Positions 17,957 to 29,358 are shown, counted from the stretch's first letter. The stretch is DNA of 64,000 bases from an uncultured bacterium (GCA_938003925.1 CALKWQ010000015.1:1627-65626); one strand, 5' to 3'. The notes: generated by a model not told the origin, from the sequence alone. Numbers and translations: made by a program.

Positions 17957-17980
17957 AGAAAAAAGAGCCTTTCGGCTCAA
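17957..17980 (-). terminator. intrinsic terminator downstream of X1
   Basis: Minus strand GAGCC-GAAA-GGCTC followed by TTTTTT. Part of a 37-nt repeat shared with 25092-25128. Confidence 0.6.
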
Positions 17981-17992
17981 TTTTGATGTTTT

Positions 17993-18056
17993 GCTCGGGG
18001 TCGCGGACAAAGTTCGAACCAAAGTCATTCAATATACCCATTATAAGAGACTGGGC
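17993..18056 (-). repeat. X1: tRNA-3'-end-like repeat (family X), begins right after the stop codon of 18057..19088
   Basis: Minus strand ...TTTGGTTCGAACTTTGTCCGCGACCCCGAGCAA. 25/27 identity to the X core gctcggggtcgtggacgaagttcgaac. Confidence 0.6.
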
Positions 18057-19088
18057 TTAATTCCTAGACTCATCTTCCCTGCCGATCTCTTCACAAACTT
18101 CTAGTCCTATGTTTTTAAGTGAAGCTTCTAGATCTTTATCATTAATTACTCTAGCTTCATTGTGTTTAGTAAATATTCCTCTATTTTTAGTGGTAAAGCC
18201 ATCTTTTGGTAAATTAACAGCTGTAGATGTCTTATCGCCTAACAGAGTTAATCTTCCTCTCTTAATATATGATTTAACTAACTTAATCACTGCTTTATCA
18301 TTATAGTTCTCTAGAATTGTACTCATGGCTCTCTTAACACTGTCAAAATCACCCTTAGAACGTCTAAATTCTTCTGATCCAATACTCATAATAAAGTCTA
18401 GAATATCAGTAGCTTTCTTTTCTTTTTCACCAATCTTTTTATCTTTGTTAAAAACAATATCAGGCATATTTAAAACTGGCTCACTAACTTCACCATCTTC
18501 ATGATTCTTAAAGATAATATCTCCAGCAAGAACTTCTCCCACTCCACCGTGTTCATCATGTATTTTTCTTAGATATTTACCTGATTCAGCTAAAGCTTGA
18601 AATCTATCAAAACCTTCTACTTTATCACTATTTATTAAATCAGAACGATAAAGGTCCTGTAAGGGTAAACCTTTTAGGTAAAGACCCTTATCTTTGATCT
18701 CAATACCCTTCTCATGAATATCATAGGCATATTCCAATCCTAATCTTTTTATATTCTCAAAAATCTCTTCCTTGCCACCCCTATATCTTTTTGTGCCCGG
18801 AGCTAAAAACTTAAAAAATAGCTTTGGATGACGGCTAAAAAGCTCACTTAAATCTTTAACAACATGTTCATCATAAGTTCTCAGTATAGCATCACCAAAT
18901 TTATCTATTTTAGAAACAATTCCTTTATTATTCCAAATCAGCTTGCCATCATCTTCTATCTCCATTTTTCCACCATAAACACCCACAGTGCTTTCAAAGT
19001 CCTCAGTTGGAACTCTTGATTCATTAACTTGTTCATTAACAGAGTCTCTAATCTTATTTAACGGATTAAAATTTTCAAATTTAAACAT
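18057..19088 (-). CDS. hypothetical protein (343 aa)
   Basis: Long ORF. Weak kinase-like flavour (YLRKIHDEHGGVGEVLAGDIIF), but catalytic residues are not recognisable. Confidence 0.6.
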   Translation of the reverse strand: MFKFENFNPLNKIRDSVNEQVNESRVPTEDFESTVGVYGGKMEIEDDGKLIWNNKGIVSKIDKFGDAILRTYDEHVVKDLSELFSRHPKLFFKFLAPGTKRYRGGKEEIFENIKRLGLEYAYDIHEKGIEIKDKGLYLKGLPLQDLYRSDLINSDKVEGFDRFQALAESGKYLRKIHDEHGGVGEVLAGDIIFKNHEDGEVSEPVLNMPDIVFNKDKKIGEKEKKATDILDFIMSIGSEEFRRSKGDFDSVKRAMSTILENYNDKAVIKLVKSYIKRGRLTLLGDKTSTAVNLPKDGFTTKNRGIFTKHNEARVINDKDLEASLKNIGLEVCEEIGREDESRN

Positions 19089-19138
19089 ATTTTTATATTA
19101 TAATAACTAAATTATATCATCTTTAAAAAGAGCCAACA

Positions 19139-19172
19139 ATAAAAAAAGAGGATGTTTTTACATTCCTCTTTA
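19139..19172 (-). terminator. intrinsic terminator (minus strand) inside the 720-nt non-coding gap
   Basis: Minus strand AGAGGAATG-TAAAAA-CATCCTCT (one bulge) followed by TTTTTTT. Confidence 0.5.
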
Positions 19173-19209
19173 ATCCAAGCATATTATTTTAGGAAAAAAT
19201 CTTCAATAT

Positions 19210-19311
19210 TTATTTATACATATCTCGAGTTGCACGCTCAGTAAAATGCCAAATTAAGGGGTGAAATAGAGAAGTTATCCCTATCATCACGCCGGCAAAT
19301 AATTTGGCCAT
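19210..19311 (-). CDS. possible 33-aa hydrophobic micro-ORF
   Basis: Hand-found: MAKLFAGVMIGITSLFHPLIWHFTERATRDMYK*. Sits between the T3a module and the 19139-19172 terminator. No other support. Confidence 0.2.
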   Translation of the reverse strand: MAKLFAGVMIGITSLFHPLIWHFTERATRDMYK

Positions 19312-19411
19312 TAATTTTAATGTTCTGTGTTTTTTTCATTTCTATCTATTTTTTAAGATTAAAAAAACTATTTTTTACTAACAAAAAAGCATGCCACACG
19401 GTATATTTTTT

Positions 19412-19453
19412 GACAGAACTCGGATTCGAACTAACAATCCCCTTTATTTTCAG
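19412..19453 (-). repeat. T3a: tRNA 3'-half-like fragment (family T3)
   Basis: Minus strand AAATAAAGGGGATTGTTAGTTCGAATCCGAGTTCTGTC, followed by a decayed copy of the TTGACA-N17-TATACT module. Confidence 0.5.
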
Positions 19454-19474
19454 CTCTTTTTACACATTTGACGT

Positions 19475-19505
19475 AAACAAAAAACATGACCTAAATCATG
19501 TTTCT
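19475..19505 (-). terminator. terminator-like hairpin between X2 and T3a
   Basis: Minus strand AAACATGA-TTTAGG-TCATGTTT followed by TTTGTTT. Confidence 0.5.
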
Positions 19506-19537
19506 TTGTATTTTGGCTAATGTTTAATACCTTGTAC

Positions 19538-19630
19538 CGGTCTTAAACACCAAAACGTTGTTGGCTCGGGGTCGTGGACGAAGTTCGAACCAGTGTGGCT
19601 AAGATTAAATAAGAATTAAGGGGATCATCT
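19538..19630 (-). repeat. X2 (19564-19630) plus 32-nt linker repeat (19538-19569)
   Basis: 27-nt core gctcggggtcgtggacgaagttcgaac at 19564-19590, identical to X3. Linker cggtcttaaacaccaaaacgttgttggctcgg is 31/32 identical to 22859-22890. Confidence 0.65.
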
Positions 19631-19809
19631 TAATGCGCTAAAGTTCAACTGAGGAATTTAATTATTTTCTACATGGCCTGGATTTCTATTATCAAGTCTC
19701 CTTTTTCCAGGGAGGTGCTAAACACTTCATAAGCCAGAAACACTTATTTTAATAATATCATTTTTTTGATATAATTAAATATATATAATAATATTTAATA
19801 ATATTTAGT

Positions 19810-21585
19810 ATGATAAATTTTTACAAAAAATTATTTTTTGTTTTAATGATTTTTATAGGGCTCCATTTCGCATCATCAGCTAAAGCGTCAGAATCATTTA
19901 CCGTCCTTACTCCAGTTGATGGAGTATCAGCTTCTATTGGTGATAATTTAAATATTTCTTGGTCAACCACTATCAATCAAAGCGATATTATTATGCAGAA
20001 AATTTCTTTTCAAGATGCTTATGGTCAATCTTATACAAACGCCTTACCCGATAATCATCATTTTACCATGGTTCCCGCCGGGACCAATAACTATAATTGG
20101 AAAATTCCTTCTGACGCAAATGGACTAATGGAAATTGAGCTATATAGCAGCTATTATGATTCTGAACAAAATGTAGCTATTTATTCTAAAAAAGTAAAAA
20201 TTAATGTAAGTCAGAATGCAAGCATTACCTTCCAGGAACCTAAATCTGGAGCTATTTATAATTTTAATGACAACATTCCTGTTAACTATGAATATAGTGG
20301 CTCAGGCAATGATGCTACTTTGCCAAAGAAATTTTATTTATACCGTGGAGACGATCTAATGGAAGATGATATATATATATCTGGCTCTAATAAATTCTGG
20401 ATCCAAAAAAGTCATTTAAGCGGAGATAATTACCGAATTAAAGTCCGCATCGGCTCTACCGAAGCTTTCAGTCCTTATTTTACAATAAAATATCCGGCTA
20501 TTGATGAAGTTAATGTTAATCTAGACAATACTAAATCATACATAATCGGTAGTAATTATGATATTACCTGGAGTTCCAACTGCAAGGGCGGAGTGGCTAC
20601 GATTTGGTTTTCAACTACACCTGAAGCATCTACTGAGGGCCAAATTATCTTTCCTCTAAGCAACTTTCAGAGTGCTAAAAATTTATTGGGAACAGATGCT
20701 TTTTACACTTATCAGAACGCCTTTATGTTCAACACTCTTGCCAACACAATGTTAAGCCCTAATCTCGAAAAAATAAATTGGTCAGTTCCAGAACAAATGA
20801 GTTTTTCAAATTATTCTTTTAACAATCAACTTACTAATTCATATTACATTTTTCGTCGCCCAAACAATGAATATGTAATTGCAGAAAAATCAAAAAACCC
20901 AGTCATTCTCACTGTCACCCCTGGACAATATGTAGTCCGTGTTGATATTAAGGGTGCTAATGGCTGTTTTGCTACTGGACAGAGCCAAATAATTAATGTT
21001 GCTGCTAAAGGCTCGCAAGATGCTCCTAAAATCGTAATACCTACTAAAATCACCACACCAATCAAATCTGACGTTGATAAAAACTCTTATGATTATTCTT
21101 TTTCAAAAAAACAGGCCGGAAAAATCTTACTGCAAGTTGAGTCTCGAGGAGAAGCTTGGTATGTAAATCCTAAAGATGGACGAAGACAATACATGGCTGA
21201 TGGCGCTACAGCTTATAGTATTTTGAGAAGTTATGGCGTTGGCATTACCAATAAAGATTTAAATAAGATTCTGGTAGCCACTGATTTTATTGATAATCTT
21301 GCAAACCTAGACTCAGATAATGATGGTTATAACGATAAACAAGAATTGCAGAACGGTTATAATCCATATGCTAGCGGAAAACTAGTGATAGATAAAAGTT
21401 TTTCTAACATACATAAGGGAAAAATATTTTTACAAGTTGAGTCTCATGGCGAAGCTTGGTATATAAATCCGATTGATGGTTTAAGATATTATTTAGGGGG
21501 GGCAAGTGATGCCTTTAACGTCATGAGAAGTTTGGGGCTAGGCATTACAAATACCAACTTAAATAAAATACCAATTAACAATTAA
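19810..21585 (+). CDS. secreted repeat protein (signal peptide; Ig-like-looking N-terminal repeats; two C-terminal ~55-aa repeats flanking a DxDxDG Ca-binding-type motif)
   Basis: 591 aa. Tandem KILLQVESRGEAWYVNPKDGRRQYM...GVGITNKDLNKI and KIFLQVESHGEAWYINPIDGLRYYL...GLGITNTNLNKI, with DSDNDGYNDKQE between them. Confidence 0.8.
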   Translation: MINFYKKLFFVLMIFIGLHFASSAKASESFTVLTPVDGVSASIGDNLNISWSTTINQSDIIMQKISFQDAYGQSYTNALPDNHHFTMVPAGTNNYNWKIPSDANGLMEIELYSSYYDSEQNVAIYSKKVKINVSQNASITFQEPKSGAIYNFNDNIPVNYEYSGSGNDATLPKKFYLYRGDDLMEDDIYISGSNKFWIQKSHLSGDNYRIKVRIGSTEAFSPYFTIKYPAIDEVNVNLDNTKSYIIGSNYDITWSSNCKGGVATIWFSTTPEASTEGQIIFPLSNFQSAKNLLGTDAFYTYQNAFMFNTLANTMLSPNLEKINWSVPEQMSFSNYSFNNQLTNSYYIFRRPNNEYVIAEKSKNPVILTVTPGQYVVRVDIKGANGCFATGQSQIINVAAKGSQDAPKIVIPTKITTPIKSDVDKNSYDYSFSKKQAGKILLQVESRGEAWYVNPKDGRRQYMADGATAYSILRSYGVGITNKDLNKILVATDFIDNLANLDSDNDGYNDKQELQNGYNPYASGKLVIDKSFSNIHKGKIFLQVESHGEAWYINPIDGLRYYLGGASDAFNVMRSLGLGITNTNLNKIPINN

Positions 21586-21629
21586 ACCGTATAACGTTAC
21601 CTTTAAAATTCGGATTAATTAAATATTTA

Positions 21630-21657
21630 AAAAAACGAGCATTTCTGCTCGTTTTTA
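21630..21657. terminator. bidirectional intrinsic terminator
   Basis: aaaaACGAGCA-tttc-TGCTCGTttttt: 7-bp stem with A-run and T-run flanks. Serves the plus gene and, on the minus strand, follows module Ya. Confidence 0.7.
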
Positions 21658-21660
21658 TAT

Positions 21661-21720
21661 CAATGCTCCCGCAGTAATATTCGAACCGGAGTCGGTCTTA
21701 AAACATGAATATCCACTGCC
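21661..21720 (-). repeat. Ya: tRNA-like fragment (family Y)
   Basis: Minus strand CGGCAGTGGATATTCATGTTTTAAGACCGACTCCGGTTCGAATATTACTGCGGGAGCATTG. 6/7 acceptor-like pairing CGGCAGT/ACTGCGG, but only 39 nt lie between the arms. Confidence 0.5.
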
Positions 21721-21844
21721 GTATATAACGTTAGCTAAGTTTAAGACCTAACACTAATTACTATTAACATTTAACTTAATAACTCCTTCTTTATCCTAGC
21801 TGAACATTCTTCACAAATACTTTGGCAAAATATTTGTATTAAAA

Positions 21845-22252
21845 TTACAATATGGAGTTTAAATCAAAATCATTAAATTTTTCTGGCAAGCGGCCGACAC
21901 TTTTTAAAAAAGGAATACCGACTCGCAAAAAATTTTTTTGTATATCCATATAACCATTTTTTCTAAGATTTTCGTTGTTTTCATTTATAGTATCAATTGC
22001 CTCGCTCAAATAACTTTCGATTTCTTCATCTGACATTATTTCATATTGGGATTTACCAAAATTACCTTCTAATTCTTCATCTGGCGTACTTCCTAAAGCT
22101 TTGTGATCTTCGCTAGTTAAAGAAAAAAATCCTTGTTCTTTTGATTTCTTAGCAGCTTGTTCAAATGCAGATATCTTTTGTTTTTCAAAATTTTCCATAC
22201 TATTAAAAAAATTACATATCCCTTGGTAATACCATACCACTATACGATTCAT
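21845..22252 (-). CDS. hypothetical protein (135 aa)
   Basis: ORF. Its ATG overlaps the TGA of the upstream Nudix gene (ATGA overlap), which supports co-translation. Confidence 0.5.
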   Translation of the reverse strand: MNRIVVWYYQGICNFFNSMENFEKQKISAFEQAAKKSKEQGFFSLTSEDHKALGSTPDEELEGNFGKSQYEIMSDEEIESYLSEAIDTINENNENLRKNGYMDIQKNFLRVGIPFLKSVGRLPEKFNDFDLNSIL

Positions 22253-22689
22253 TTAGCCTGGTATATCTTTCCGGCTTTTAAATTGCGAATCATAAGTTCT
22301 GTTCCTTCGAAAATTTTATCAGGCAAATCATCTATGCTAAACCACCTCCATTCCCCCCATTTATCTGGCTCTTCAACATTTGGCACCCCGCCTTTATAAA
22401 CACCTTCAGTTCCTATGTTTAAATAGTGTTTACCATCTGTTTCTATGTATCTCATTTCATCTGCAACTGATATTAATTTGAACTCATCAATATCCAAGCC
22501 AGTTTCTTCTTTAACTTCTCGCTTTGCTGTTTCAAATATAGTCTCGCCGAACTCCAGATGACCCCCAGGAAATGACCATTCTCCAGCTCCATGAGATCCT
22601 TTTCTTAACCCTAATAAAACTTCTCCCTTATCATTTTTTATCATTACCCCGATGCCAACTTTAGGATATTTTTTTTCTAAATTATTCAT
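22249..22689 (-). CDS. NUDIX hydrolase (MutT-like)
   Basis: Nudix box GGHLEFGETIFETAKREVKEETGL. 146 aa. Confidence 0.8.
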   Translation of the reverse strand: MNNLEKKYPKVGIGVMIKNDKGEVLLGLRKGSHGAGEWSFPGGHLEFGETIFETAKREVKEETGLDIDEFKLISVADEMRYIETDGKHYLNIGTEGVYKGGVPNVEEPDKWGEWRWFSIDDLPDKIFEGTELMIRNLKAGKIYQAK

Positions 22690-22709
22690 ATTTATTATCT
22701 GATGCTTTA

Positions 22710-22718
22710 ATTATAGCA
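22710..22718 (-). promoter_or_regulatory. extended -10 element (TGcTATAAT) for 22249..22689
   Basis: Minus strand TATGCTATAAT, 20 nt upstream of the ATG. Confidence 0.4.
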
Positions 22719-22731
22719 TAAATATTAATTG

Positions 22732-22772
22732 GACAGGAGTGGGATTCGAACCAAAAACCCCTTTATTTACAG
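22732..22772 (-). repeat. T3b: tRNA 3'-half-like fragment (family T3)
   Basis: Minus strand AAATAAAGGGGTTTTTGGTTCGAATCCCACTCCTGTCCAA: canonical-looking T-loop and 3' acceptor strand, with a decayed 5' T-stem. Confidence 0.55.
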
Positions 22773-22791
22773 ACCTTTCCGCTTATTTGAC

Positions 22792-22826
22792 TAAAACAAA
22801 AGAACTCAGCACAAACTGAGTTCTTT
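22792..22826 (-). terminator. intrinsic terminator between X5 and T3b
   Basis: Minus strand AGAACTCAG-TTTGTG-CTGAGTTCT (perfect 9 bp) followed by TTTGTTTT. Confidence 0.65.
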
Positions 22827-22858
22827 CGATTTTTTTGGTAATATTAGACCTCTCCTGT

Positions 22859-22929
22859 CGGTCTTAAACACCAAAATGTTGTTGGCTCGGAGACTGGGAT
22901 AAAATTGGAACTTTTTTGTAATAAATTAC
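22859..22929 (-). repeat. X5 (degenerate family X copy, 22884-22929) plus 32-nt linker repeat (22859-22890)
   Basis: ggctcggagactgggataaaattggaac aligns to the X core with many A/T substitutions. Starts right after the stop codon of 22930..23277. Confidence 0.5.
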
Positions 22930-23277
22930 TTAATTTTCTCTAATAATTGTCGGTTTAAAAAATCTTTCCTGGAATTCAACCAAAGACAGAATTTGCTCAT
23001 CAGAATAACTAACTCCATCTGGCACAACTATTAATTTATCATCGTCATCATCTAATCTATGAATTATGGCAATACATTTTCCAGTAAATTCTTCTTTTGG
23101 TTCAAATACTCCTAAAATATAAGCATCAACTCCTTCACCATCAGGAGCTAATTCATTTTCAATATAACCGTAATTAAAAGAATAATAGATATCGTATTTA
23201 GGGTGCTTAGACCCCAAAGCTCTATCTACTTTAACATTAACAATTTTATTTAAAAATTTAGTGGCATAATTATTCAT
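22930..23277 (-). CDS. small inorganic-pyrophosphatase-like protein (family I PPase fold, truncated type)
   Basis: 115 aa. DGEGVDAYILG...IIHRLDDDDDKLIVVP resembles the DGDPLD / acidic metal-binding cluster of soluble PPases. Assigned from recall. Confidence 0.55.
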   Translation of the reverse strand: MNNYATKFLNKIVNVKVDRALGSKHPKYDIYYSFNYGYIENELAPDGEGVDAYILGVFEPKEEFTGKCIAIIHRLDDDDDKLIVVPDGVSYSDEQILSLVEFQERFFKPTIIREN

Positions 23278-23283
23278 GAAATA

Positions 23284-23292
23284 ATTATAACA
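23284..23292 (-). promoter_or_regulatory. extended -10 (TGtTATAAT) only 6 nt from the ATG of 22930..23277; possible leaderless mRNA
   Basis: Minus strand TGTTATAAT-TATTTC-ATG. Confidence 0.35.
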
Positions 23293-23319
23293 TATAGTTC
23301 TAAAGCTATAAACTCCCTA

Positions 23320-23986: not shown

Positions 23987-24913
23987 TTAATGTTCTAGTT
24001 CCTCTTTAATTAGTGGAACGATTTGCTTGCGCATGATTAAATTTGGCCTTTTGGCAACAGCCTCATTAAATTTAATATTTAAAACTTTTTCCAATAGTTT
24101 CTGTGTTTTTAGATCTGGACTGATAAAATAATTACATTCTAACTCTAACTCGATAGTATTTTGAAAAATATAATCTAGTCCCATATCTTGCCTTATTTTC
24201 TCAAGTACCTTAATAATTTCTTCAATTCTTTCTTTGATAAGCATCTCAGCTCCGACAATTTCAATTTGAGCAATGCCAACTTTTTTATCAGCAAAAGTAA
24301 ACCACGCAAAATCGCCTTCAATTCTTTCACTCAACTTGCTTCCTGATAAATCTGACTTGGCCATAAAAAGATCTTTCCAGAAATTATCTGGCAAGAGTGC
24401 TATTTTATCAAGATACTCTACGGCCTTTTTATCTCTGTCTGTTGTAACTCCACCCTTAAAATTAAGAGTATTGGATATAATGGCTCCACAAAGTAAAATT
24501 GCTGACTCTTTGGAAATATTAATATTATTTTCAATAAACTTTTCTGCTATTAAAGTAGCAGCTGAGCCGACTAATTCAATTTGCACCCTAGCATTAGGAA
24601 ATTTATCAGCTTCATTAATTTTTCTGTGATCAATAATCTCAACTACTTTTTCCGGCGCAATATTTCCCTCAAGACCATTTAAATCGCTGGCGTCAACCAG
24701 GACGACCTCATCAAAATTATCAGCATTAATTATTTTCTGGGGATATGGAATATTATAACGATCTAAAATATATTTAGCTTCGTCGTGCGGCTCTCCGATA
24801 ATACCAACAATAGATTCTCTGCCCGTCTTCTGTAAAAATTCACCATAGGCAAAGGCTCCAGCCACCCCATCTAAGTCTGGATTTACATAACATGTGATAA
24901 GTGTTGGTTTCAT
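23987..24913 (-). CDS. DHH-family phosphoesterase, family II (Mn-dependent) inorganic pyrophosphatase-like
   Basis: NPDLDGVAGAFAY, VLVDASD, IIDHRK and the C-terminal LFMAKSDLSG...VGIAQIE segment resemble PpaC/DHHA2 proteins. Assigned from recall. Confidence 0.7.
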   Translation of the reverse strand: MKPTLITCYVNPDLDGVAGAFAYGEFLQKTGRESIVGIIGEPHDEAKYILDRYNIPYPQKIINADNFDEVVLVDASDLNGLEGNIAPEKVVEIIDHRKINEADKFPNARVQIELVGSAATLIAEKFIENNINISKESAILLCGAIISNTLNFKGGVTTDRDKKAVEYLDKIALLPDNFWKDLFMAKSDLSGSKLSERIEGDFAWFTFADKKVGIAQIEIVGAEMLIKERIEEIIKVLEKIRQDMGLDYIFQNTIELELECNYFISPDLKTQKLLEKVLNIKFNEAVAKRPNLIMRKQIVPLIKEELEH

Positions 24914-24921
24914 ATATCACT

Positions 24922-24927
24922 ATTATA
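24922..24927 (-). promoter_or_regulatory. -10 box TATAAT 8 nt from the ATG of 23987..24913; possible leaderless mRNA
   Basis: Minus strand TAGGTTATAAT-AGTGATAT-ATG. Confidence 0.35.
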
Positions 24928-24957
24928 ACCTAAAAATTAAAATATAAAAACCAAAAA

Positions 24958-25001
24958 CACAGGACGTGGATTCGAACCAATATTGACCAATGAAATCAAG
25001 G
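24958..25001 (-). repeat. T3c: tRNA 3'-half-like fragment (family T3)
   Basis: Minus strand TTGGTCAATATTGGTTCGAATCCACGTCCTGTG. Confidence 0.5.
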
Positions 25002-25029
25002 TTTTTATATAAATTACTGTAGATTATCT

Positions 25030-25078
25030 AAAATATCCCAAAAATATTCGAACCGCTTTGGAACTTAAAATGTATCTA
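25030..25078 (-). repeat. Yb: tRNA-like fragment (family Y)
   Basis: Minus strand TAGATACATTTTAAGTTCCAAAGCGGTTCGAATATTTTTGGGAT aligns with Ya (GGATA..CAT.TTTTAAG....CGGTTCGAATATT). Confidence 0.5.
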
Positions 25079-25086
25079 ATATTAAA

Positions 25087-25111
25087 ACAAAAAAAGAGCC
25101 TTTCGGCTCAA
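25087..25111 (-). terminator. intrinsic terminator downstream of X6
   Basis: Minus strand GAGCC-GAAA-GGCTC followed by TTTTTTT. Same hairpin as at 17957-17980. Confidence 0.6.
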
Positions 25112-25123
25112 TTTTGTTGTTTT

Positions 25124-25183
25124 GCTCGCCTGGAGAGACAGCTTCCGAACTTGGATGGCTAATAATAAATAATATTTTGACCC
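25124..25183 (-). repeat. X6: degenerate family X copy, begins right after the stop codon of 25184..26869
   Basis: gctcgcctggagagacagcttccgaacttggatggctaataat aligns to X1/X2 (gctcg...ttcgaac...tggcta) with substitutions. Confidence 0.45.
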
Positions 25184-26869
25184 CTAATTCTTCATTCGCC
25201 TAACTTCCAAATCTACTAAATTATCTAGATTAAAATTTTCTCTTTCCGTTTCACATTCTTTTCTCTCTTTATCCGGATAGTTACTGCAGTTGGGATAACG
25301 GGCTACAAATTGCACCAAATAAACATTATTTTCTATTACTGTTGTATAAGCATATTGCGTATAGACAGATCCCGCCGCGCCCTCGCTAGAAGCACCTATG
25401 CAATATTTCTGGCCGTTTATTTCCTTTTTACTTATTCGAAGAGGTAAGCTAGATTCTAGAGGGGTTTCATTACACTCTATTTCACCATTTTCTATCCAAG
25501 ATTCTAACTTGGGGTATTCTTCGGCTTTAAATATGTTCGAACTATAATTTTGAAATGAAATATAACTAGCCTTAAAACTATCTGGTAAATTTGATTCTAT
25601 ATTCCCTTCTTCGGTATATAAATATTTAACCCCTATCACCTTGATTGTGCCTAAAGTTTTATAAATATCGCTTTCTTCGTTAACCAGCTCGCCGCTAATT
25701 TCTATTTTTTGCCCCTTTCTTATCTTATTAACTATATTATTTTTATCATCACTGGGCGCTTGCAAGCGATAATAATCACTATTACTATTCTTAATACCAA
25801 ATACACACAAATCATTATGCGATATATTCTCATCTTTTAGAGGCAGGCAAACAAACTCTCCAGAAACAACAAATAAATTATCATCTCCGCTCATCCCCTT
25901 ATATTCGCTTAAAAAATGAAAAGACTCCGATATTTTTTGATCAAAGCAATTATCATAAAAGAACCCCAGGCCAATCTGACATTCTTGTCCCGTACTCCAA
26001 AAAGCGACTCTTTTTTGAACCGGACTATAAATTATATAATTTGTATAATTGACCGGACATAAAGTCGACCCCAAATCTTTACCATCTCCATCTATTTCTA
26101 CGCGATAATTTCCACTGAATTGAGTCGGTATTTTGGCCTTATAACTACAACCAGAGCCAAGTTTTTGTTTAATAATTTTGTCTAAATCATCTTCATTTTC
26201 AACATTTAAAATCACGAAATGCCAAGACAAGGGATACTTAGAAGTATTATCATATTCAGGAATAAAAGTATTTTCTGTCTTCACCGATTCTCCGGTTTGC
26301 CAATCAAATGATATATCGTATTTTTGATGGAGATAAAAATTGTTATTTTTACTTAATACTTGGTTAGGGAGTAAAACGTCTAAGCCTTCCGGTAAATTAG
26401 TCCAAAGTTTACTATCAATAGACAATGACGGGTAACGAAACATAAAACCATATTCTTCATTTTTATAGTCAATCCATTCAATCGATTCTCTGGCATTTTT
26501 GATTATAATAAGACTCCAAATAGAGTAAAAACGAGAATAATGGCGATGCGTAGCCAATAGCGCATTATCATTTTTATCTTTAAAAAAATAACCAGAACCC
26601 ATCTGGCTGATAAATTCGTAGCCTTGATCTTTCAATAAACTAACTAAAACTTCTTGACCATTTTTGCCTTTAGTTAAATATTTATCTCCACCTATGTCTA
26701 ATTTAACAATTTTATTGCTAGCGAAATTTAATTGTATTATCCCTTTTAGTAGAGGGGTCGGGTTGCCTTCCTGAAAAATTACTGGCCGATATAACAAAAA
26801 AGCTAAAATAAAAATAATAATTAAGCCGCCAAAAAAAATTGATACTACCTTTTTATTTATTTTTAGCAT
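25184..26869 (-). CDS. hypothetical membrane-anchored protein (561 aa)
   Basis: Long ORF with N-terminal TM (VVSIFFGGLIIIFILAFLL). No family recognised. Confidence 0.6.
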   Translation of the reverse strand: MLKINKKVVSIFFGGLIIIFILAFLLYRPVIFQEGNPTPLLKGIIQLNFASNKIVKLDIGGDKYLTKGKNGQEVLVSLLKDQGYEFISQMGSGYFFKDKNDNALLATHRHYSRFYSIWSLIIIKNARESIEWIDYKNEEYGFMFRYPSLSIDSKLWTNLPEGLDVLLPNQVLSKNNNFYLHQKYDISFDWQTGESVKTENTFIPEYDNTSKYPLSWHFVILNVENEDDLDKIIKQKLGSGCSYKAKIPTQFSGNYRVEIDGDGKDLGSTLCPVNYTNYIIYSPVQKRVAFWSTGQECQIGLGFFYDNCFDQKISESFHFLSEYKGMSGDDNLFVVSGEFVCLPLKDENISHNDLCVFGIKNSNSDYYRLQAPSDDKNNIVNKIRKGQKIEISGELVNEESDIYKTLGTIKVIGVKYLYTEEGNIESNLPDSFKASYISFQNYSSNIFKAEEYPKLESWIENGEIECNETPLESSLPLRISKKEINGQKYCIGASSEGAAGSVYTQYAYTTVIENNVYLVQFVARYPNCSNYPDKERKECETERENFNLDNLVDLEVRRMKN

Positions 26870-27233
26870 AGTTTTTTATTAATAAATTAGCACCTCTAAT
26901 AACAATTCCTACCAGTCCGCCAAAAATGATTATGGCAGCAAAGAATAGAGTCGTATATAAAGCTTCTGGAATATAAAAATTTTCGCCAGAGTTGTAGACA
27001 ATTATTTGCCAGATAACTACGAATACAAAACTAGTTATAATTGAGCCAATAATCAGTTTGGGCAAAAAACAATAACTTTTATGTTCATTTTGCACCAAAA
27101 CCATTAAAACTCCGGCGACCAAAGGCAATAATATTATTTGCCAACCCCAAAAAAATGTAAACCAATCTGGTTTAAGGGTAAACATAAAGCTAACTATTAC
27201 TGTCAGCGCAGAAATAAAATAAATTTTTTTCAT
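26853..27233 (-). CDS. hypothetical 4-TM membrane protein
   Basis: 126-aa hydrophobic ORF. Overlaps the downstream gene by 17 nt. Confidence 0.5.
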   Translation of the reverse strand: MKKIYFISALTVIVSFMFTLKPDWFTFFWGWQIILLPLVAGVLMVLVQNEHKSYCFLPKLIIGSIITSFVFVVIWQIIVYNSGENFYIPEALYTTLFFAAIIIFGGLVGIVIRGANLLIKNYAKNK

Positions 27234-27297
27234 ATAATAATTATATCCTATAACTGTTACTTTAAAAACAGCGATACAAATTATACTTTTTTACTTA

Positions 27298-27326
27298 AAT
27301 AAAAAATAGGCTATTATTAGCCTATT
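27298..27326 (-). terminator. intrinsic terminator of 27326..28201
   Basis: Minus strand AATAGGCTA-ATAA-TAGCCTATT followed by TTTTTATTT. The stem abuts the stop codon. Confidence 0.6.
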
Positions 27327-28201
27327 TATTTTTTTACGTTCTCCTGCAAAATCTTATCTCTTAGCTTATCTCCCCCTATTTCATAGGCGGCTTTAACTAC
27401 AGATTCTTGGGTATTATCAACATTTTTAATAATCCGCAATACCTCGGGCATTTCTTGTTTTACAAGCTCAAGGAAATCATTGGATCCATCGAAATAAGAC
27501 TTAAAAAAGGGCCAGATGAATTTTTCACTTTTGTTGAGAAAAACCTCCTCAATTAAATGCACATGCAACGCATAGGCAAATTCATAAAAAATCCGACCCT
27601 TCTCTTCTTTACTAAATAAATTATCAAAAGCTCCGACTCTTTCCATTTCTCGTAATACAACTTTAGACCAAAGATCTGTGGCGGCTTCATTTAATCCAAA
27701 GCATGGACTATTTCCTTTTTCGCTTAAAGAATGAAAGCCTAGTTGATAAAAATCAATAGATCTACATTCCTTATTTTCTTTAACAGAAACAGAATAAAAT
27801 GAAAAAAGGTGGGAGATTTCATGAGCAATATCAATTACAAAATGACACCTATCTTTATTCTTCCTAAGGAAAATGTAACCAAACGAGCAGTTGCCGCCCT
27901 CATTTTCTGACATTTTAACATTTTTCTCATAAACTTCGTCATCTAAAATAATGATTTGATTATCAAATATTCTCATTGGCTTAAAACCATTAACTTTAAG
28001 AAGATTATTTCCCGCCTTTATAGCCGCAGCAATAATATGCTTCTCAAAGGTGGTCCAAATGAAAGACGAGACTTGGTGCACATTCATAACACGAGCAATT
28101 AAAAAATCATTTTTTGTTTCCTCGCTTACGGGCCCAATAAACTTTGGGGCATAGTTCCATTTTTCCTTCCAATAACCATTTCCAATATCTTTCGCACTCA
28201 T
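27326..28201 (-). CDS. hypothetical protein with HExxH zinc-metalloprotease-type motif
   Basis: 291 aa. VIDIAHEISHLF contains HEISH. No further family assignment. Confidence 0.55.
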   Translation of the reverse strand: MSAKDIGNGYWKEKWNYAPKFIGPVSEETKNDFLIARVMNVHQVSSFIWTTFEKHIIAAAIKAGNNLLKVNGFKPMRIFDNQIIILDDEVYEKNVKMSENEGGNCSFGYIFLRKNKDRCHFVIDIAHEISHLFSFYSVSVKENKECRSIDFYQLGFHSLSEKGNSPCFGLNEAATDLWSKVVLREMERVGAFDNLFSKEEKGRIFYEFAYALHVHLIEEVFLNKSEKFIWPFFKSYFDGSNDFLELVKQEMPEVLRIIKNVDNTQESVVKAAYEIGGDKLRDKILQENVKK

Positions 28202-28246
28202 TTGTACAAATTTTTAAGGTTCAACAATCATTTTAATTATCAAAAA

Positions 28247-28275
28247 AGTATACTATACGTATGCCTTTTTGTCAA
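28247..28275 (-). promoter_or_regulatory. sigma70-type promoter TTGACA-N17-TATACT for 27326..28201
   Basis: Minus strand TTGACA (28270-28275), 17-nt spacer, TATACT (28247-28252). Lies directly after X4. Homologous to 29255-29283. Confidence 0.55.
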
Positions 28276-28276
28276 T

Positions 28277-28342
28277 GCTCGGGGTCGTGGACGAAGTTAG
28301 AACTAGTGTGGCTAAAATTAAGGAAGAATTCAAGGGTTAATC
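28277..28342 (-). repeat. X4: tRNA-3'-end-like repeat (family X)
   Basis: Core at 28277-28303 is 26/27 identical to X2/X3. Its 3' end CCCCGAGCA-TTGACAAAA matches the tRNA-Gln 3' end plus flank. Confidence 0.65.
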
Positions 28343-28395
28343 TTTTATTTATATCTAAGTTACTAGAAAAATAACTATATATCCCCATTTCTCTA

Positions 28396-28428
28396 AAGAA
28401 AAAGGGCGCTCATGTTTGAACACCCCTC
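28396..28428 (-). terminator. weak terminator-like hairpin after 28484..28849
   Basis: Minus strand AGGGGTG...CGCCCT (6 bp with bulge and wobble) followed by TTTTTCTTT. Confidence 0.35.
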
Positions 28429-28483
28429 TAAATAATATAAGTTCATTTTTACCTTGTGTCGCCCCAGAAACCATCATTAACCT

Positions 28484-28849
28484 TTATCTTACCGACATCA
28501 GGCATTCTACACTGGAATAGAAGCCAGACATGACGTATGGTCGAATAATACACTCAACCAAAGCAGCTTTGGGAAAAGTTTGATGTACCTCATCAACCAG
28601 GTCAAGCACTAATCGTCTTTTAACTTTTTCGGTTCTTTCCGGTTTTTCAGTTAAGCCATCGATAAAAACAATGATTTCTTCGCCCAAACCTTTAGTCATA
28701 AGGTTTTGAGGAAAAAATATTGAAACCTGTTCTCTTTTAATTCTCAAATCTGCAATATCAGCAGCTCTTTGACACATAAGATCGGAAAAAATTTCCAATG
28801 TTTCTTTATCCGTTTCCGTTGGAATTCCATAAACAATCAAGATCGGCAT
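28484..28849 (-). CDS. hypothetical protein; possible tautomerase-superfamily fold (N-terminal Met-Pro)
   Basis: 121 aa. Begins MPILIVYGIP and has two beta-alpha-beta-like halves. Strong SD (GGAGGG) upstream. The family call is speculative. Confidence 0.5.
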   Translation of the reverse strand: MPILIVYGIPTETDKETLEIFSDLMCQRAADIADLRIKREQVSIFFPQNLMTKGLGEEIIVFIDGLTEKPERTEKVKRRLVLDLVDEVHQTFPKAALVECIIRPYVMSGFYSSVECLMSVR

Positions 28850-28892
28850 GATACCCTCCTTTTTTTAAGTGAATAATTAATTTTTTTAAATT

Positions 28893-29207
28893 TTAAGATA
28901 AAAATCTAACCCAAACGCCTCCAGCCGCAAAACAAAGTATATTGAAAAATGTTACAATAACAAAATTTTCAAGCGGCCAGCTCGATAAATAGAATATCAA
29001 ACTATGACCTATAATACCTAATACCGTTGGTATATAAGCATCGGCTAATCTTTGCACCTCTCCCATCTTTATTATTCTGTAAATTATAAACCCCAGAAAT
29101 GCTGGGCCAAGAAAAGGAATAACAGTGCAAATAAAAGCGAAGAAGAAAAACACAAGCCATAATATAATTTTAGGCTGGTAAGTCATTTGATGAACTAAAT
29201 TTCTCAT
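28893..29207 (-). CDS. hypothetical 3-TM membrane protein
   Basis: 104-aa hydrophobic ORF. First gene after the tRNA-Gln promoter module. Confidence 0.5.
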   Translation of the reverse strand: MRNLVHQMTYQPKIILWLVFFFFAFICTVIPFLGPAFLGFIIYRIIKMGEVQRLADAYIPTVLGIIGHSLIFYLSSWPLENFVIVTFFNILCFAAGGVWVRFLS

Positions 29208-29247
29208 TTTATGAATTTTTAAAGGTTCGACAATACAATTTTAACTA

Positions 29248-29283
29248 TCAAAAAAGTATACCACATAGGTATACTTTTGTCAA
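29248..29283 (-). promoter_or_regulatory. overlapping tRNA-Gln terminator hairpin and TTGACA-N17-TATACT promoter
   Basis: Minus strand TTGACA(29278-83)-AAAGTATACCTATGTGG-TATACT(29255-60)-TTTTTT. AGTATACC/GGTATACT also forms a perfect 8-bp hairpin followed by T6. Confidence 0.6.
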
Positions 29284-29287
29284 CTTG

Positions 29288-29358
29288 CTCGGGGACAGGG
29301 ATTCGAACCCCGATAAACAGGACCAGAACCTGTTGTCCTACCATTAGACGATCCCCGA
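29288..29358 (-). tRNA. tRNA-Gln (anticodon CUG)
   Basis: Hand-folded cloverleaf. Acceptor UCGGGGA/UCCCCGA (U1-A72), D arm GUCU..GGAC, anticodon arm ACAGG-UUCUGGU-CCUGU, T arm CGGGG-UUCGAAU-CCCUG, discriminator G. No encoded CCA. Confidence 0.9.

What the first reader, a model, noticed from the sequence alone, without database searches (positions are those of the whole stretch)
17957..29358. One-directional AT-rich gene array ending at tRNA-Gln, with tRNA-fragment modules in almost every intergenic gap
Seen:
- The intact tRNA-Gln(CUG) (29288-29358, minus) has its 3' end facing an ~11-kb stretch in which 11 of 12 ORFs are on the minus strand.
- That stretch is visibly more AT-rich than the core to the right.
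- Its ORFs are mostly orphans or small nucleotide-phosphate hydrolases.
- Every intergenic gap over 90 nt except 27234-27325 contains one to three pieces that, on the minus strand, read like a tRNA T-loop plus 3' acceptor strand (..GGTTCGAA..).
- The copies are at 17993-18056, 19412-19453, 19538-19630, 21661-21720, 22732-22772, 22859-22929, 23356-23421, 24958-25001, 25030-25078, 25124-25183 and 28277-28342.
- None folds into a complete cloverleaf by hand.
- I did not notice such pieces in 1-17.9 kb or 29.4-64 kb.

Established: genomic islands integrate into the 3' ends of tRNA genes and leave partial tRNA copies as att scars. Tandem accretion leaves several scars.

Inference: this could be a multi-layer island built at tRNA-Gln. 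Two facts argue against simple serial integration:
- No integrase or recombinase ORF is present.
- The fragments fall into at least three sequence families rather than being copies of the tRNA-Gln end.

Alternatives:
- a decayed tRNA gene array invaded by cassettes;
- a cassette system whose recombination or processing sites are tRNA-derived;
- tRNA-like 3'UTR processing signals cut by RNase P/Z, as the t-elements of plant mitochondria are.

I know of no described system with this layout.
Basis: partly seen in the sequence, partly recalled or inferred. Interest (0 to 1): 0.8.

Follow-up and report, generated by a model that had tools for sequence, protein, structure and literature searches.

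The report
Gene-cassette island built at tRNA-Gln
The stretch is a stack of seven small, horizontally exchanged gene cassettes inserted one after another at the end of a glutamine tRNA gene in a tiny-genome (Patescibacteria) bacterium; the "tRNA fragments" are the docking sites and old scars of that process, which relatives show is most likely run by large serine recombinases, as in known island systems of other bacteria.

Summary
Every listed piece belongs to a significant repeat family, and all lie on the minus strand within 17.9-29.3 kb.

What the pieces are:
- **Not tRNAs or folded tRNA-like RNAs.** ARAGORN, Rfam and RNAalifold are all negative.
- **Element "A".** A conserved 68-nt DNA site closes each cassette. 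It ends in CCCCGAGC(A), which is also the 3' end of tRNA-Gln.
- **Decayed tRNA-Gln 3' halves.** These sit inside two conserved cassette-start flanks.

Evidence from relatives (Falkowbacteria-like MAGs and metagenome contigs):
- The same A sites and flanks directly abut intact tRNA-Gln(CUG) or tRNA-Gln(UUG).
- There is no synteny with the window downstream of the tRNA.
- 20 of 56 contigs break within 250 nt of it.
- Window cassette 3 (25129-23355, DHH phosphoesterase + NUDIX) is 99.8% identical to a copy in a 32%-GC genome. The window core is 44% GC. Identity switches on and off at the cores.

The missing integrase appears in relatives. Large serine recombinase genes lie convergent to the tRNA or to A and overlap it, next to a rolling-circle Rep gene. 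None lies in the 64-kb window.

Closest known systems are the Dehalococcoides ssrA islands and SCC composite islands. I file this as a new member of that kind, with integron-like small cassettes, not described for Patescibacteria in the library searched.

The parts
29287..29358 (-). Intact tRNA-Gln(CUG), the anchor of the array. Its last 8 nt, CCCCGAGC (29287-29294), are the core shared with every A site.
   Evidence: ARAGORN and Rfam (59 bits). Core match. lysS-tRNA-Gln synteny in 56 of 80 relatives.
28276..29286 (-). Cassette 1. It holds a promoter-like dyad TTGACA-17-TATACT (29283-29255), ORFs 28893-29207 (104 aa) and 28484-28849 (121 aa), and A site 28342-28276.
   Evidence: 80% nt identity over 1039 nt to L116 1402-2417. 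There it follows another cassette's A rather than the tRNA, and is followed by a different flank. The same cassette start follows tRNA-Gln in L078. Promoter scan.
25124..28275 (-). Cassette 2, possibly two fused cassettes. It holds a repeat of the cassette-1 promoter flank (28275-28197), ORFs 27326-28201, 26853-27233 and 25184-26869, and degenerate A site 25188-25124.
   Evidence: nhmmer E 2e-7 for the flank and 9e-4 for A. The 126-aa and 561-aa genes have homologues downstream of tRNA-Gln in L036. No family piece lies in gap 27234-27325.
23355..25123 (-). Cassette 3. It holds the class 3 flank (25116-24962: terminator 25109-25096, two decayed tRNA-Gln-like pieces, promoter), DHH/DHHA2 phosphoesterase 23987-24913, NUDIX 23422-23964, and A site 23422-23355.
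   Evidence: Window 25129-23355 has 3 mismatches in 1775 nt against L118 (GCA_964435515.1). The ~50 nt before it has 9 mismatches, and sequence beyond both cores is unrelated. L118 core GC is 0.33 against 0.44 for the window. Pfam.
22885..23354 (-). Cassette 4. It holds terminator 23343-23331, pyrophosphatase-like ORF 22930-23277, and degenerate A site 22929-22885 ending in CTCCGAGC.
   Evidence: Repeat family D2. Flank 23349-23283 is 94% identical to L002 16020-16085. Pfam.
21661..22884 (-). Cassette 5. It holds the class 4 flank (22881-22732, with a decayed tRNA-Gln 3' half at 22772-22732), NUDIX 22249-22689, ORF 21845-22252, and variant end site 21720-21661 (GGTTCGAA-10 nt-GGAGCA).
   Evidence: Class 4 profile E 3e-40. 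The same flank directly follows intact tRNA-Gln in L048, L046, L026, L009 and L049. The end site is 86% identical to L048 13115-13188.
19564..21660 (-). Cassette 6. It holds terminator ~21655-21631, the only plus-strand ORF 19810-21585 (591 aa, secreted-looking), and A site 19629-19564.
   Evidence: A profile E 3e-20. Homologues of the 591-aa protein sit just upstream of A in L100, L116 and L107.
17992..19563 (-). Cassette 7. It holds the class 4 flank (19560-19412) plus a decayed copy of the tRNA-proximal promoter flank (19431-19345), ORF 18057-19088 (343 aa), and A site 3' half 18022-17992.
   Evidence: Class 4 profile E 1e-37, A profile E 1e-8, flank copy E 6e-3. Window 19115-18837 is 99% identical to L106 8673-8951.
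17959..17991 (-). Distal flank after the last core: terminator GAGCCGAAAGGCTC-T6, of the class-3-like type that follows intact tRNA-Gln in L004.

Best explanation
Region 17992-29358 is a tandem accretion island at the 3' end of tRNA-Gln(CUG) in a Falkowbacteria-like Patescibacteria genome. It consists of seven small cassettes of 0.5-3.2 kb.

**Cassette anatomy (shown)**
- Each cassette starts right after a core, (C)CCCGAGC(A), with a terminator and/or promoter flank.
- It then carries one to three accessory genes.
- It ends in its own core. For cassettes 1-4, 6 and 7 that core closes a copy of element A, from full-length to degenerate or partial; cassette 5 ends in a variant site. A's consensus is GGATTAAACCTTTAATTCTTATCTAATCTTAGCCACACTAGTTCGAACTTCGTCCACGACCCCGAGCA.

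**Proposed mechanism (inferred)**
- Cassettes are inserted, and can be moved again, by site-specific recombination within the shared core.
- The enzyme is a large serine recombinase (LSR) supplied in trans. The likely source is LSR + rolling-circle-Rep elements that occupy the same site in relatives.
- Each insertion lands next to the tRNA or next to an earlier A. It pushes older cassettes outward and leaves A joined to whatever flank was there before.

- The A sites. They share with the tRNA only GTTCGAA and the terminal CCCCGAGC, spaced 12 nt apart instead of 7.
- Older decayed tRNA-Gln 3' halves, fossilised inside two conserved cassette-start flanks.

**Shown versus inferred**
- Shown: the repeat families, their restriction to this site, cassette exchange from core to core, and LSR genes overlapping the cores in relatives.
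- Inferred: that the LSRs catalyse the exchange, and that they act in trans on the window's recombinase-less cassettes.
For: **1. The modules are real and site-specific**
- All 7 GGTTCGAA matches in the window lie in the region.
- The A profile has 67 copies in the window plus loci L001-L117. They are co-oriented within each contig, with up to 5 in 9 kb.
- In the window, significant hits occur only at 17.9-29.3 kb.

**2. The same flanks abut intact tRNA-Gln in relatives**
- Class 1 flank: L078, L043, L038, L014, L019, L023, L037.
- Class 3 flank: L002, L003, L006, L020, L030, L045.
- Class 4 flank: L048, L046, L026, L009, L049.

**3. The site is hypervariable**
- wzy-greA-lysS-tRNA-Gln is conserved upstream. 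Nothing downstream is syntenic with the window.
- 20 of 56 contigs end within 250 nt after the tRNA.

**4. Boundaries fall at the core**
- The same cassette end plus A is joined to 4 different flanks (L081, L082, L098, L104) and to 3 (L100, L107, L116). Divergence starts right after CCCCGAGC.
- Window 25129-23355 has 3 mismatches in 1775 nt against L118. There it sits in an array at tRNA-Gln(UUG).
- The preceding A region has 9 mismatches in ~50 nt, and sequence outside both cores is unrelated.
- L118 is a different organism: core GC 0.33 against 0.44, binned with L012, whose LysS is 78% identical.
- The NUDIX + A3 block is 92% identical to L108, whose greA-lysS region is only 68% identical.

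**5. A recombinase sits at the site in relatives**
- LSRs with Resolvase + Recombinase + Zn_ribbon_recom domains lie convergent to the tRNA and overlap it in L021 and L034. The last ~20 codons are antisense tRNA.
- In L110 an LSR overlaps A in the same way.
- 3'-end remnants follow the tRNA in L001, L012 and L025, and follow A in L103, L114, L100 and L045. In L024 and L028 the LSR 3' end follows the tRNA but is cut by the contig end.
- The neighbouring gene is a REP_ORF2-G2P rolling-circle Rep.

**6. Precedent**
[quoted passage not shown] The islands are tandem, and 15 lack the integration module (PMC3146451).
- Ccr recombinases mobilise tandem ccr-less SCC-like cassettes (PMC11470126).

**7. 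Half-site spacing**
- GTTCGAA-to-core spacing is 7 nt in the tRNA and 12 nt in A.
- This equals the 5-bp shift of the zinc-ribbon-domain motif between attB and attP half-sites of serine integrases (PMC3783163). It is suggestive only.

**8. Cargo**
- Array cargo is diverse accessory genes, 168 of 189 co-oriented with A.
Against: - No recombinase of either family lies in the 64-kb window, so trans action is assumed rather than shown.
- Canonical serine integrases recombine only attP with attB. Yet LSR gene ends abut both the tRNA and A. Tandem growth therefore needs Ccr-like promiscuity or another route.
- No excised circle, empty site or recombination junction was observed. The tools cannot show them.
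- I could not define the right-hand half-sites, because the flanks after the core are diverse.
- Some exchange is not at cores. The NUDIX + A3 block shared with L106/L108 starts between two genes (23978), and L106 lacks window 19511-19116 inside a flank. Homologous or illegitimate recombination therefore also reshapes the array.
- The decayed 3' halves that start at the anticodon loop would fit an older, different integrase, since tyrosine integrases often cross over there.
Confidence: 0.8

Rival explanations
1. Classical serial integration by tyrosine-integrase islands or prophages into the tRNA-Gln 3' end. All pieces would be decayed attR scars, and the integrases would have been lost.
For: - The class 3 and class 4 flanks contain decayed tRNA-Gln 3' halves running from the anticodon loop to the acceptor strand. 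An example is TTGGTCTATATTGGTTCGAATCCATGTCCT in the consensus, compared by eye with the tRNA.
- That is the fragment type left by many tyrosine integrases (general knowledge; Islander paper PMC4383910, listed).
Against: - No tyrosine recombinase lies in the window.
- In the loci, the only motif hits are ~320-350-aa ORFs (probably Xer-type, not checked) a few kb from lysS in distant relatives, nearly all without the tRNA-Gln. None lies next to a core or in an A array.
- The recombinases that do abut the cores are serine recombinases.
- A is not a copy of the tRNA end. It is a 68-nt element conserved across genomes.
Confidence: 0.07
2. The array is now a fossil. Cassettes are shuffled only by homologous recombination between the ~70-220-nt conserved intergenic units after DNA uptake, and no site-specific enzyme acts on them.
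For: - A plus the class 3 flank gives ~220 nt of 80-90% identity between many cassettes.
- Some breakpoints lie away from the cores, at 23978 and 19511/19116.
- Patescibacteria commonly encode competence machinery (general knowledge, not tested here).
Against: - In the L118 comparison, identity jumps from ~82% to 99.8% exactly at the core, although homology continues on both sides of it.
- Cassette 1 follows the tRNA in the window and L078 but follows A in L116 and L090. The tRNA and A share only ~8-9 contiguous nt there, too little for homologous recombination.
- LSR genes overlap the same cores.
Confidence: 0.09
3. The pieces act at the RNA level, as tRNA-like 3'-UTR elements cut by RNase P/Z or protecting mRNA 3' ends (t-element-like).
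For: - A lies between the stop codon and the terminator, so it is probably transcribed as a 3' UTR.
- A related locus type holds a truly structured GC-rich RNA candidate whose 3' end is tRNA-Gln-like.
Against: - ARAGORN and Rfam find no tRNA-like hit, even at E up to 10.
- RNAalifold predicts 0 pairs for 37 A copies.
- A hand-drawn hairpin is paired in only 51% of cells.
- The T-stem positions in A are not complementary.
- A travels with cassettes as their boundary.
Confidence: 0.03
4. The pieces are a generic dispersed repeat (REP/MITE), or a decayed array of tRNA genes.
For: The copies are short, intergenic and numerous.
Against: - All copies lie downstream of tRNA-Gln and are co-oriented with it. 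None lies elsewhere in the window, and none of the listed hits lies in the ~10 kb upstream of lysS in the 80 loci.
- By eye, no piece resembles a tRNA 5' half or a tRNA other than Gln.
- There are no terminal inverted repeats.
Confidence: 0.01

Closest known systems
Dehalococcoides ssrA-specific genomic islands (DsiB/CcrB-like large serine recombinase; McMurdie et al. 2011, PMC3146451)
   Same: - The target is the 3' end of a single-copy tRNA-like gene in a streamlined genome.
- Several tandem islands are each bounded by a repeat of the target's 3' end, with a conserved non-target motif just upstream of the repeat.
- A ~540-aa LSR gene on the reverse strand overlaps attL, so its stop codon lies inside the target gene or the neighbouring island.
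- Many units lack the integration module.
- The islands have low GC and hold strain-specific cargo.
   Different: - The target here is tRNA-Gln (both the CUG and UUG genes), not tmRNA.
- Units are 0.5-3 kb with 1-3 genes, whereas the integration modules alone of vcr-type ssrA islands are 9-11 kb.
- The conserved element-borne site is 68 nt, and the shared core is only ~8-9 nt rather than 20 bp.
- The companion gene is a rolling-circle Rep, not the DsiA/RecF/ParB/Mom module.
- Homology of the recombinases to DsiB/CcrB was not tested beyond shared LSR domain architecture.
SCCmec and tandem SCC-like cassettes at rlmH (CcrAB/CcrC; PMC11470126)
   Same: - An LSR-driven composite array sits at the 3' end of a conserved gene.
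- Cassettes without recombinase genes are bounded by att repeats and mobilised in trans.
- Cargo is enriched in accessory and defence genes.
   Different: - The phylum and the target gene differ.
- SCCmec cassettes are ~20-68 kb.
- Two recombinases (CcrA + CcrB) are used there, whereas a single LSR gene is seen here.
- Mobilisation is shown experimentally for SCC, not here.
Prochlorococcus tycheposon islands (bioRxiv 10.1101/2020.12.28.424599)
   Same: - The host genome is streamlined and has few classical mobile elements.
- Repeated integration at a tRNA gene pushes older elements further into the island.
- Partial tRNAs and degraded integrases are scattered through the island.
   Different: - 910 of 937 elements there use tyrosine recombinases.
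- The scars there are true partial tRNAs.
- No conserved 68-nt element-borne site or mini-cassette organisation is described.
Integron cassette arrays
   Same: - The array is one-directional and made of small, mostly single-gene cassettes.
- Each cassette ends in a conserved recombination site.
- Cargo is highly diverse and includes many orphans.
- Cassettes are exchanged between distant hosts.
   Different: - There is no IntI tyrosine recombinase and no attI next to it.
- A has no attC-like foldable palindrome.
- Cassettes carry their own terminators and promoters rather than relying on a common Pc promoter.
- The anchor is a tRNA gene.
CIME/ICE tandem accretion (ICESt1 family; Pavlovic et al. 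2004, cited in PMC3146451)
   Same: Non-autonomous units bounded by att sites accumulate in tandem next to autonomous integrative elements, and are thought to be mobilised by them.
   Different: That system uses a tyrosine integrase, targets the 3' end of a protein-coding gene, and has much larger units.

Membership tests
LSR-driven tandem islands at a conserved gene's 3' end (ssrA-GI / SCC type) | Anchor is the 3' end of a conserved single-copy gene that stays intact | tested here: met
   Intact tRNA-Gln(CUG) at 29287-29358. The lysS-tRNA-Gln arrangement is conserved in 56 of 80 relatives.
LSR-driven tandem islands at a conserved gene's 3' end (ssrA-GI / SCC type) | Several tandem units, each bounded by a repeat of the anchor's 3' end | tested here: met
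   Seven units end in (C)CCCGAGC or a degenerate or variant form of it. Unit exchange runs from core to core.
LSR-driven tandem islands at a conserved gene's 3' end (ssrA-GI / SCC type) | Large serine recombinase gene adjacent to or overlapping the att site | tested here: inconclusive
   Met in relatives: L021, L034 and L110 complete, plus seven junctions with decayed LSR 3'-end remnants and two cut by contig ends. Not met in the 64-kb window itself.
LSR-driven tandem islands at a conserved gene's 3' end (ssrA-GI / SCC type) | Recombinase-less units that are nevertheless mobile | tested here: met
   The DHH + NUDIX cassette has no recombinase gene. It is 99.8% identical in a genome with 33% against 44% core GC, and is bounded by cores.
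LSR-driven tandem islands at a conserved gene's 3' end (ssrA-GI / SCC type) | Excision or circularisation and integration catalysed by the recombinase | not testable with these tools
   Needs read-level junction data or a recombination assay.
Classical tRNA-targeting tyrosine-integrase island | Tyrosine integrase at the island end next to the tRNA | tested here: not met
   None in the window by profile search. In the loci, the motif scan finds none next to a core or in an A array.
Classical tRNA-targeting tyrosine-integrase island | Displaced tRNA 3' fragment as a direct repeat at the far end | tested here: inconclusive
   Only ~8-9 nt plus the GTTCGAA motif are shared between A and the tRNA. 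Longer anticodon-to-acceptor relics exist inside the class 3 and 4 flanks but are decayed.
Integron | IntI-type tyrosine recombinase with adjacent attI and Pc | tested here: not met
   The genes upstream of the array are wzy-greA-lysS. No tyrosine recombinase was found.
Integron | attC sites: imperfect palindromes that fold as single strands | tested here: not met
   RNAalifold predicts 0 pairs on 37 A copies. A candidate hairpin is only 51% paired.
Integron | One-directional array of small cassettes with diverse cargo | tested here: met
   11 of 12 ORFs in the window region are co-oriented. 168 of 189 are co-oriented across arrays, forming 141 protein clusters.
tRNA-like RNA elements (t-elements, tRNA-like structures) | Acceptor/T-arm or cloverleaf fold conserved with covariation | tested here: not met
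tRNA-like RNA elements (t-elements, tRNA-like structures) | Cleavage by RNase P or RNase Z at the element | not testable with these tools
   Needs RNA-end mapping.
REP/MITE dispersed repeats | Copies dispersed over the genome irrespective of context | tested here: not met
   All significant copies lie downstream of tRNA-Gln and are co-oriented. A whole genome of the window organism was not available.

The most novel reading that the evidence does not exclude
Patescibacteria of the Falkowbacteria type run an integron-like gene-cassette exchange platform based on large serine recombinases instead of IntI.
- Self-expressed cassettes of 0.5-3 kb, each closed by a 68-nt attP-type arm, are captured at both tRNA-Gln genes.
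- They are re-mobilised in trans by LSR + rolling-circle-Rep elements.
- They circulate between genera with very different GC content. Diversity-generating retroelements are the most frequent cargo cluster.
- Because the recombinase reading frame runs across the site, integration swaps its C-terminal tail. That swap could act as a built-in directionality or regulation switch.
Probability: 0.4. Interest if true: 0.75.

Novelty: new member of a known kind. Interest (0 to 1): 0.58.

Why it matters
- **A mechanism for gene exchange in Patescibacteria.** These bacteria have tiny genomes, and little is described about how they exchange genes. A 2025 survey of horizontal transfer in Patescibacteria never uses the words recombinase, integrase or tRNA (PMC12455944). 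This locus offers a concrete mechanism and a searchable signature, the 68-nt A site and its flanks next to tRNA-Gln, for one hotspot of their flexible genome.
- **Assembly and binning.** It explains why many MAG contigs break right after tRNA-Gln.
- **Origin of the cargo.** It shows where accessory genes enter: NUDIX and other phosphohydrolases, Fic toxins, restriction-modification genes and diversity-generating retroelements.
- **Possible tools.** The recombinases come with short inferred attachment sequences, which is of interest because serine integrases are used for genome engineering.

Tried and rejected
1. **tRNA or tRNA-like gene calls.** ARAGORN and Rfam, at gathering threshold and at E up to 10, find only the intact tRNA-Gln.
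2. **A conserved RNA fold for A.** RNAalifold gives no pairs. A hairpin I drew by hand around GGATTA is paired in only 51% of cells and beats shuffles only weakly. Rejected.
3. **Protein-coding constraint on A.** I considered whether A is conserved because it encodes the recombinase tail in antisense. By eye on the alignment, the common variants (TTC/TTT, AGT/ATT) would be non-synonymous in that frame. There is no sign of coding constraint, but this was not tested formally.
4. **Class 3 flank as a decayed recombinase 3' end.** The 148-nt profile (52 copies) does not hit the L021/L034 recombinase 3' regions. Not supported.
5. **Viral origin.** The A pattern has 0 hits in the viral contig collection.
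6. **Tyrosine or serine recombinase in the window.** Motif scan, tblastn and profile searches are all negative. Pfam on the left-hand genes shows only accessory functions.
7. **Exact-protein look-ups.** The 343-aa protein and the AAA_33 kinase are not on record. The NUDIX-146 protein returns only short contigs.
8. **Right end of the L021-type element.** No A or tRNA-like piece was found within the 9 kb held.
9. **Dyad symmetry around the core.** I looked by eye for symmetry that would define right half-sites. The result was inconclusive.
10. **Rfam match for the GC-rich RNA candidate of relatives.** None found.

Full report
**1. Observation**

The window comes from a Falkowbacteria-like member of the Patescibacteria (CPR). 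Its LysRS (29416-30930, minus) is up to 86% identical to MAG proteins labelled Falkowbacteria, Patescibacteria or Parcubacteria.

- ARAGORN and Rfam find one tRNA in the region, tRNA-Gln(CUG) at 29287-29358 on the minus strand. They find no sub-threshold tRNA-like hit, even at E up to 10.
- Twelve ORFs lie between 18057 and 29207, eleven of them on the minus strand.
- GC is 0.326 in 17957-29286 and 0.439 to the right. The 10 kb to the left is also rather low, at 0.353.
- All seven GGTTCGAA matches of the 64-kb window lie on the minus strand within 18.0-29.3 kb. Shuffles expect 1.6.
- Outside the region, only a 53-nt terminator fragment at 12779-12727 matches.

**2. What the pieces are**

They are of two kinds.

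*Element A.*
- A is a 68-nt element with consensus GGATTAAACCTTTAATTCTTATCTAATCTTAGCCACACTAGTTCGAACTTCGTCCACGACCCCGAGCA.
- It has 67 copies in the window plus the loci I fetched. Copies are always co-oriented within a contig, with up to five in 9 kb.
- In the window, A copies lie at 28342-28276, 23422-23355 and 19629-19564. There is a 3' half at 18022-17992, and degenerate copies at 25188-25124 and 22929-22885.
- A shares with tRNA-Gln only GTTCGAA and the terminal CCCCGAGC(A).
- It has no conserved fold. RNAalifold predicts 0 pairs on 37 copies, and a hand-drawn hairpin is paired in 51% of cells. A is therefore a conserved DNA site, not a tRNA-like RNA.

*Cassette-start flanks.*
- Class 3 is 148 nt with 52 copies; the window copy is 25116-24962.
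- Class 4 is ~150 nt with 14 copies; the window copies are 22881-22732 and 19560-19412.
- Each begins with a terminator hairpin and ends near a promoter.
- Each contains decayed tRNA-Gln 3' halves running from the anticodon loop to the acceptor strand (comparison with the tRNA by eye).
- A third flank, class 1, follows the tRNA itself (TTGACA-17-TATACT with a dyad, 29283-29255). It is repeated after A at 28275-28197 and, decayed, at 19431-19345.
- Terminator-like sites number 23 in the region, against 6 expected.

**3. Relatives**

- In 56 of 80 loci fetched with LysRS, tRNA-Gln follows lysS. The upstream genes wzy-greA-lysS are syntenic.
- Downstream, nothing is syntenic with the window.
- Twenty of the 56 contigs end within 250 nt after the tRNA, as expected for a population-variable or repeat-rich site.
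- The flanks that follow A in the window directly follow the intact tRNA-Gln in other genomes:
  - class 1 in L078, L043, L038, L014, L019, L023 and L037;
  - class 3 in L002, L003, L006, L020, L030 and L045;
  - class 4 in L048, L046, L026, L009 and L049.

Each window module is thus 'a core plus what once followed a core'. This is the signature of repeated insertion at one point.

A metagenome scan with an A pattern gave 37 more contigs. The viral collection gave none. In these contigs, the same cassette end plus A is joined to different flanks. Four flanks occur for L081/L082/L098/L104 and three for L100/L107/L116. Divergence starts right after CCCCGAGC.

**4. Cassettes move as units**

- Cassette 1 of the window (29294-28266) is 80% identical to L116 1402-2417. 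There it follows another cassette's A rather than the tRNA, and is followed by a different flank.
- The strongest case is cassette 3 (class 3 flank, DHH/DHHA2 phosphoesterase, NUDIX hydrolase, A):
  - Window 25129-23355 has 3 mismatches in 1775 nt against L118 (GCA_964435515.1). There it sits in an array anchored at tRNA-Gln(UUG).
  - The ~50 nt of A-like sequence just before it has 9 mismatches.
  - Beyond both cores the sequences are unrelated.
  - L118 belongs to another organism. Its core GC is 0.33, like L012 from the same MAG (LysS 78% identical), against 0.44 for the window core.
- A recombinase-less cassette has therefore recently moved between genomes, with ends in a 7-nt window (GCGAGCA) of the core.
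- The cassette GC of ~0.32 matches low-GC relatives such as L118 and L012. This fits the array being AT-rich relative to its host.
- Not all exchange is at cores:
  - The NUDIX + A block shared at 92% with L106/L108 starts between two genes, while the L108 greA-lysS region is only 68% identical.
  - L106 lacks 396 nt inside a flank.

**5. The recombinase**

- The window has none. tblastn, a motif scan and profile searches for serine and tyrosine recombinases are negative. Pfam on the array and on the left-hand genes shows only accessory functions.
- Relatives do have one:
  - In L021 and L034 a 549/559-aa protein lies convergent to tRNA-Gln and overlaps it. It has Resolvase, Recombinase and Zn_ribbon_recom domains. 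Its last ~20 codons are the antisense of the tRNA.
  - In L110 a 513-aa homologue (~30% identical) overlaps an A site in the same way. Its tail, MLGVVDEVRTSVAKIKEELEV, is antisense A.
  - A third, more distant homologue lies in L046.
- 3'-end remnants of the first type follow the tRNA in L001 and L012 and follow A in L103. In L024 and L028 the gene is cut by the contig end. Remnants of the second type follow A in L114, L100 and L045 and follow the tRNA in L025.
- Next to both complete genes lies a REP_ORF2-G2P rolling-circle replication gene.
- In L110 the recombinase-bearing unit runs from one A site to a degenerate A about 7 kb further on.

**6. Mechanism**

*Shown:*
- a common core at the end of the tRNA and of every unit;
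- unit exchange from core to core;
- serine recombinase genes straddling the same cores in relatives.

*Inferred:*
- The recombinases cut and rejoin within the core.
- They act in trans on the small cassettes.
- New units enter next to the tRNA or next to an existing A, pushing older ones outward.

One detail fits serine-integrase biology. GTTCGAA lies 7 nt from the core in the tRNA but 12 nt from it in all A copies. In serine integrases, the zinc-ribbon-domain motif of attB is shifted 5 bp towards the centre relative to attP (PMC3783163). I treat this as suggestive only, because I could not define the right half-sites.

A difficulty remains. Canonical serine integrases recombine only attP with attB, yet recombinase ends abut both the tRNA and A. 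Tandem growth therefore needs a more permissive enzyme or another route.

**7. Comparison with known systems**

- **Dehalococcoides ssrA islands** are the closest (PMC3146451).
  - Tandem islands lie downstream of the tmRNA gene, bounded by a 20-bp repeat of its 3' end.
  - A conserved non-target motif sits just upstream of the repeat.
  - Fifteen islands lack the integration module and are interpreted as cis-mobilizable elements.
- **SCC composite islands** show experimentally that Ccr recombinases mobilise tandem cassettes lacking ccr (PMC11470126).
- **Tycheposon islands of Prochlorococcus** show the same 'push older elements inward, leave partial tRNAs' pattern, mostly with tyrosine recombinases.
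- **Integrons** share the small one-directional cassettes. They differ in enzyme, site structure and expression logic.

What is particular here:
- the target, both tRNA-Gln genes;
- the very small self-expressed cassettes;
- the 68-nt conserved element-borne site with only ~8-9 nt shared with the target;
- the lineage.

I found no paper describing such a system in Patescibacteria in the library searched.

**8. Verdict**

- Its main inference, a multi-layer island at tRNA-Gln with tRNA-derived recombination sites, is supported.
- Its claim that nothing comparable is described is not.

I file the locus as a new member of the known kind 'serine-recombinase-driven tandem accretion at the 3' end of a tRNA-like gene'. 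Its integron-like features would deserve experimental follow-up.

- Confidence in the mechanism as stated: about 0.8.
- Interest: 0.58.

Noticed in passing
L036 11982-12199; L050 12615-12822; L005 11663-11890; L083 11076-11280; L117 1677-1880 (not in the window): A GC-rich element of ~170 nt sits right after tRNA-Gln or A plus a terminator. RNAalifold gives 54 pairs, 17 with compensatory changes, in only 5 sequences. Its 3' end copies the tRNA-Gln T-loop/acceptor 3' strand and pairs with its own 5' end. No Rfam family matches. Its last ~40 nt resemble element A by eye, so A may derive from it. It is a candidate new structured RNA.
   Followed up: partly
L045 14358-16854; L110 11083-13124; also L095, L099, L093, L085, L103, L106: Diversity-generating retroelement cassettes are the most frequent cargo cluster of the A arrays, in 8 contigs. 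They carry a reverse transcriptase with YADD and LGNLTSQ motifs (Pfam RVT_1) and a target/template repeat pair, identified by eye.
   Followed up: partly
window 12727-12779 (-): The first 53 nt of the class 3 flank (terminator plus TTAATATTAGAT) sit just after the ileS stop codon, with no A site (E 1.7e-5). This could be a remnant of an older, eroded part of the island, or a shared terminator type.
   Followed up: partly
window 631-1599, 5198-6151, 6285-6731, 9145-10251: These genes, left of the array, have 71-73%-identical nucleotide matches on contigs that carry A sites (L084, L082/L118, L116, L085). They include a Na/Ca exchanger, PsiE and a 368-aa orphan. In L118 and L085 the match lies directly after a cassette-start flank. 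The low-GC stretch 8-18 kb may be an older, fixed part of the same island.
   Followed up: partly
L001-L080, downstream end of tRNA-Gln: 20 of 56 species-representative contigs end within 250 nt after tRNA-Gln. Contigs holding the window's own proteins also break at cassette borders (L119, L121-L124). The hotspot is a systematic assembly breakpoint in these MAGs.
   Followed up: yes
L021 ~14990-15040; L110 ~5150-5200: Both recombinase elements carry a long GC-rich palindrome (CTTTTCCGGCTCCCCC..GGGG..CCGCCGGAAAAG) upstream of the rolling-circle Rep gene. It may be the replication origin.
   Followed up: no
window 57234-57592 (-): Bacterial RNase P RNA class A (237 bits). It is ordinary and was useful only to confirm a bacterial host.
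   Followed up: no
L007 and L107 flanks after the core; L008, L015, L022: Further flank types after tRNA-Gln or A contain pieces that, by eye, read like tRNA T-arm/acceptor ends on the opposite strand (for example GGAGAGAAGCGGGACTCGAAC), and other GC-rich segments. More element families seem to use this site than the ones characterised here.
   Followed up: no
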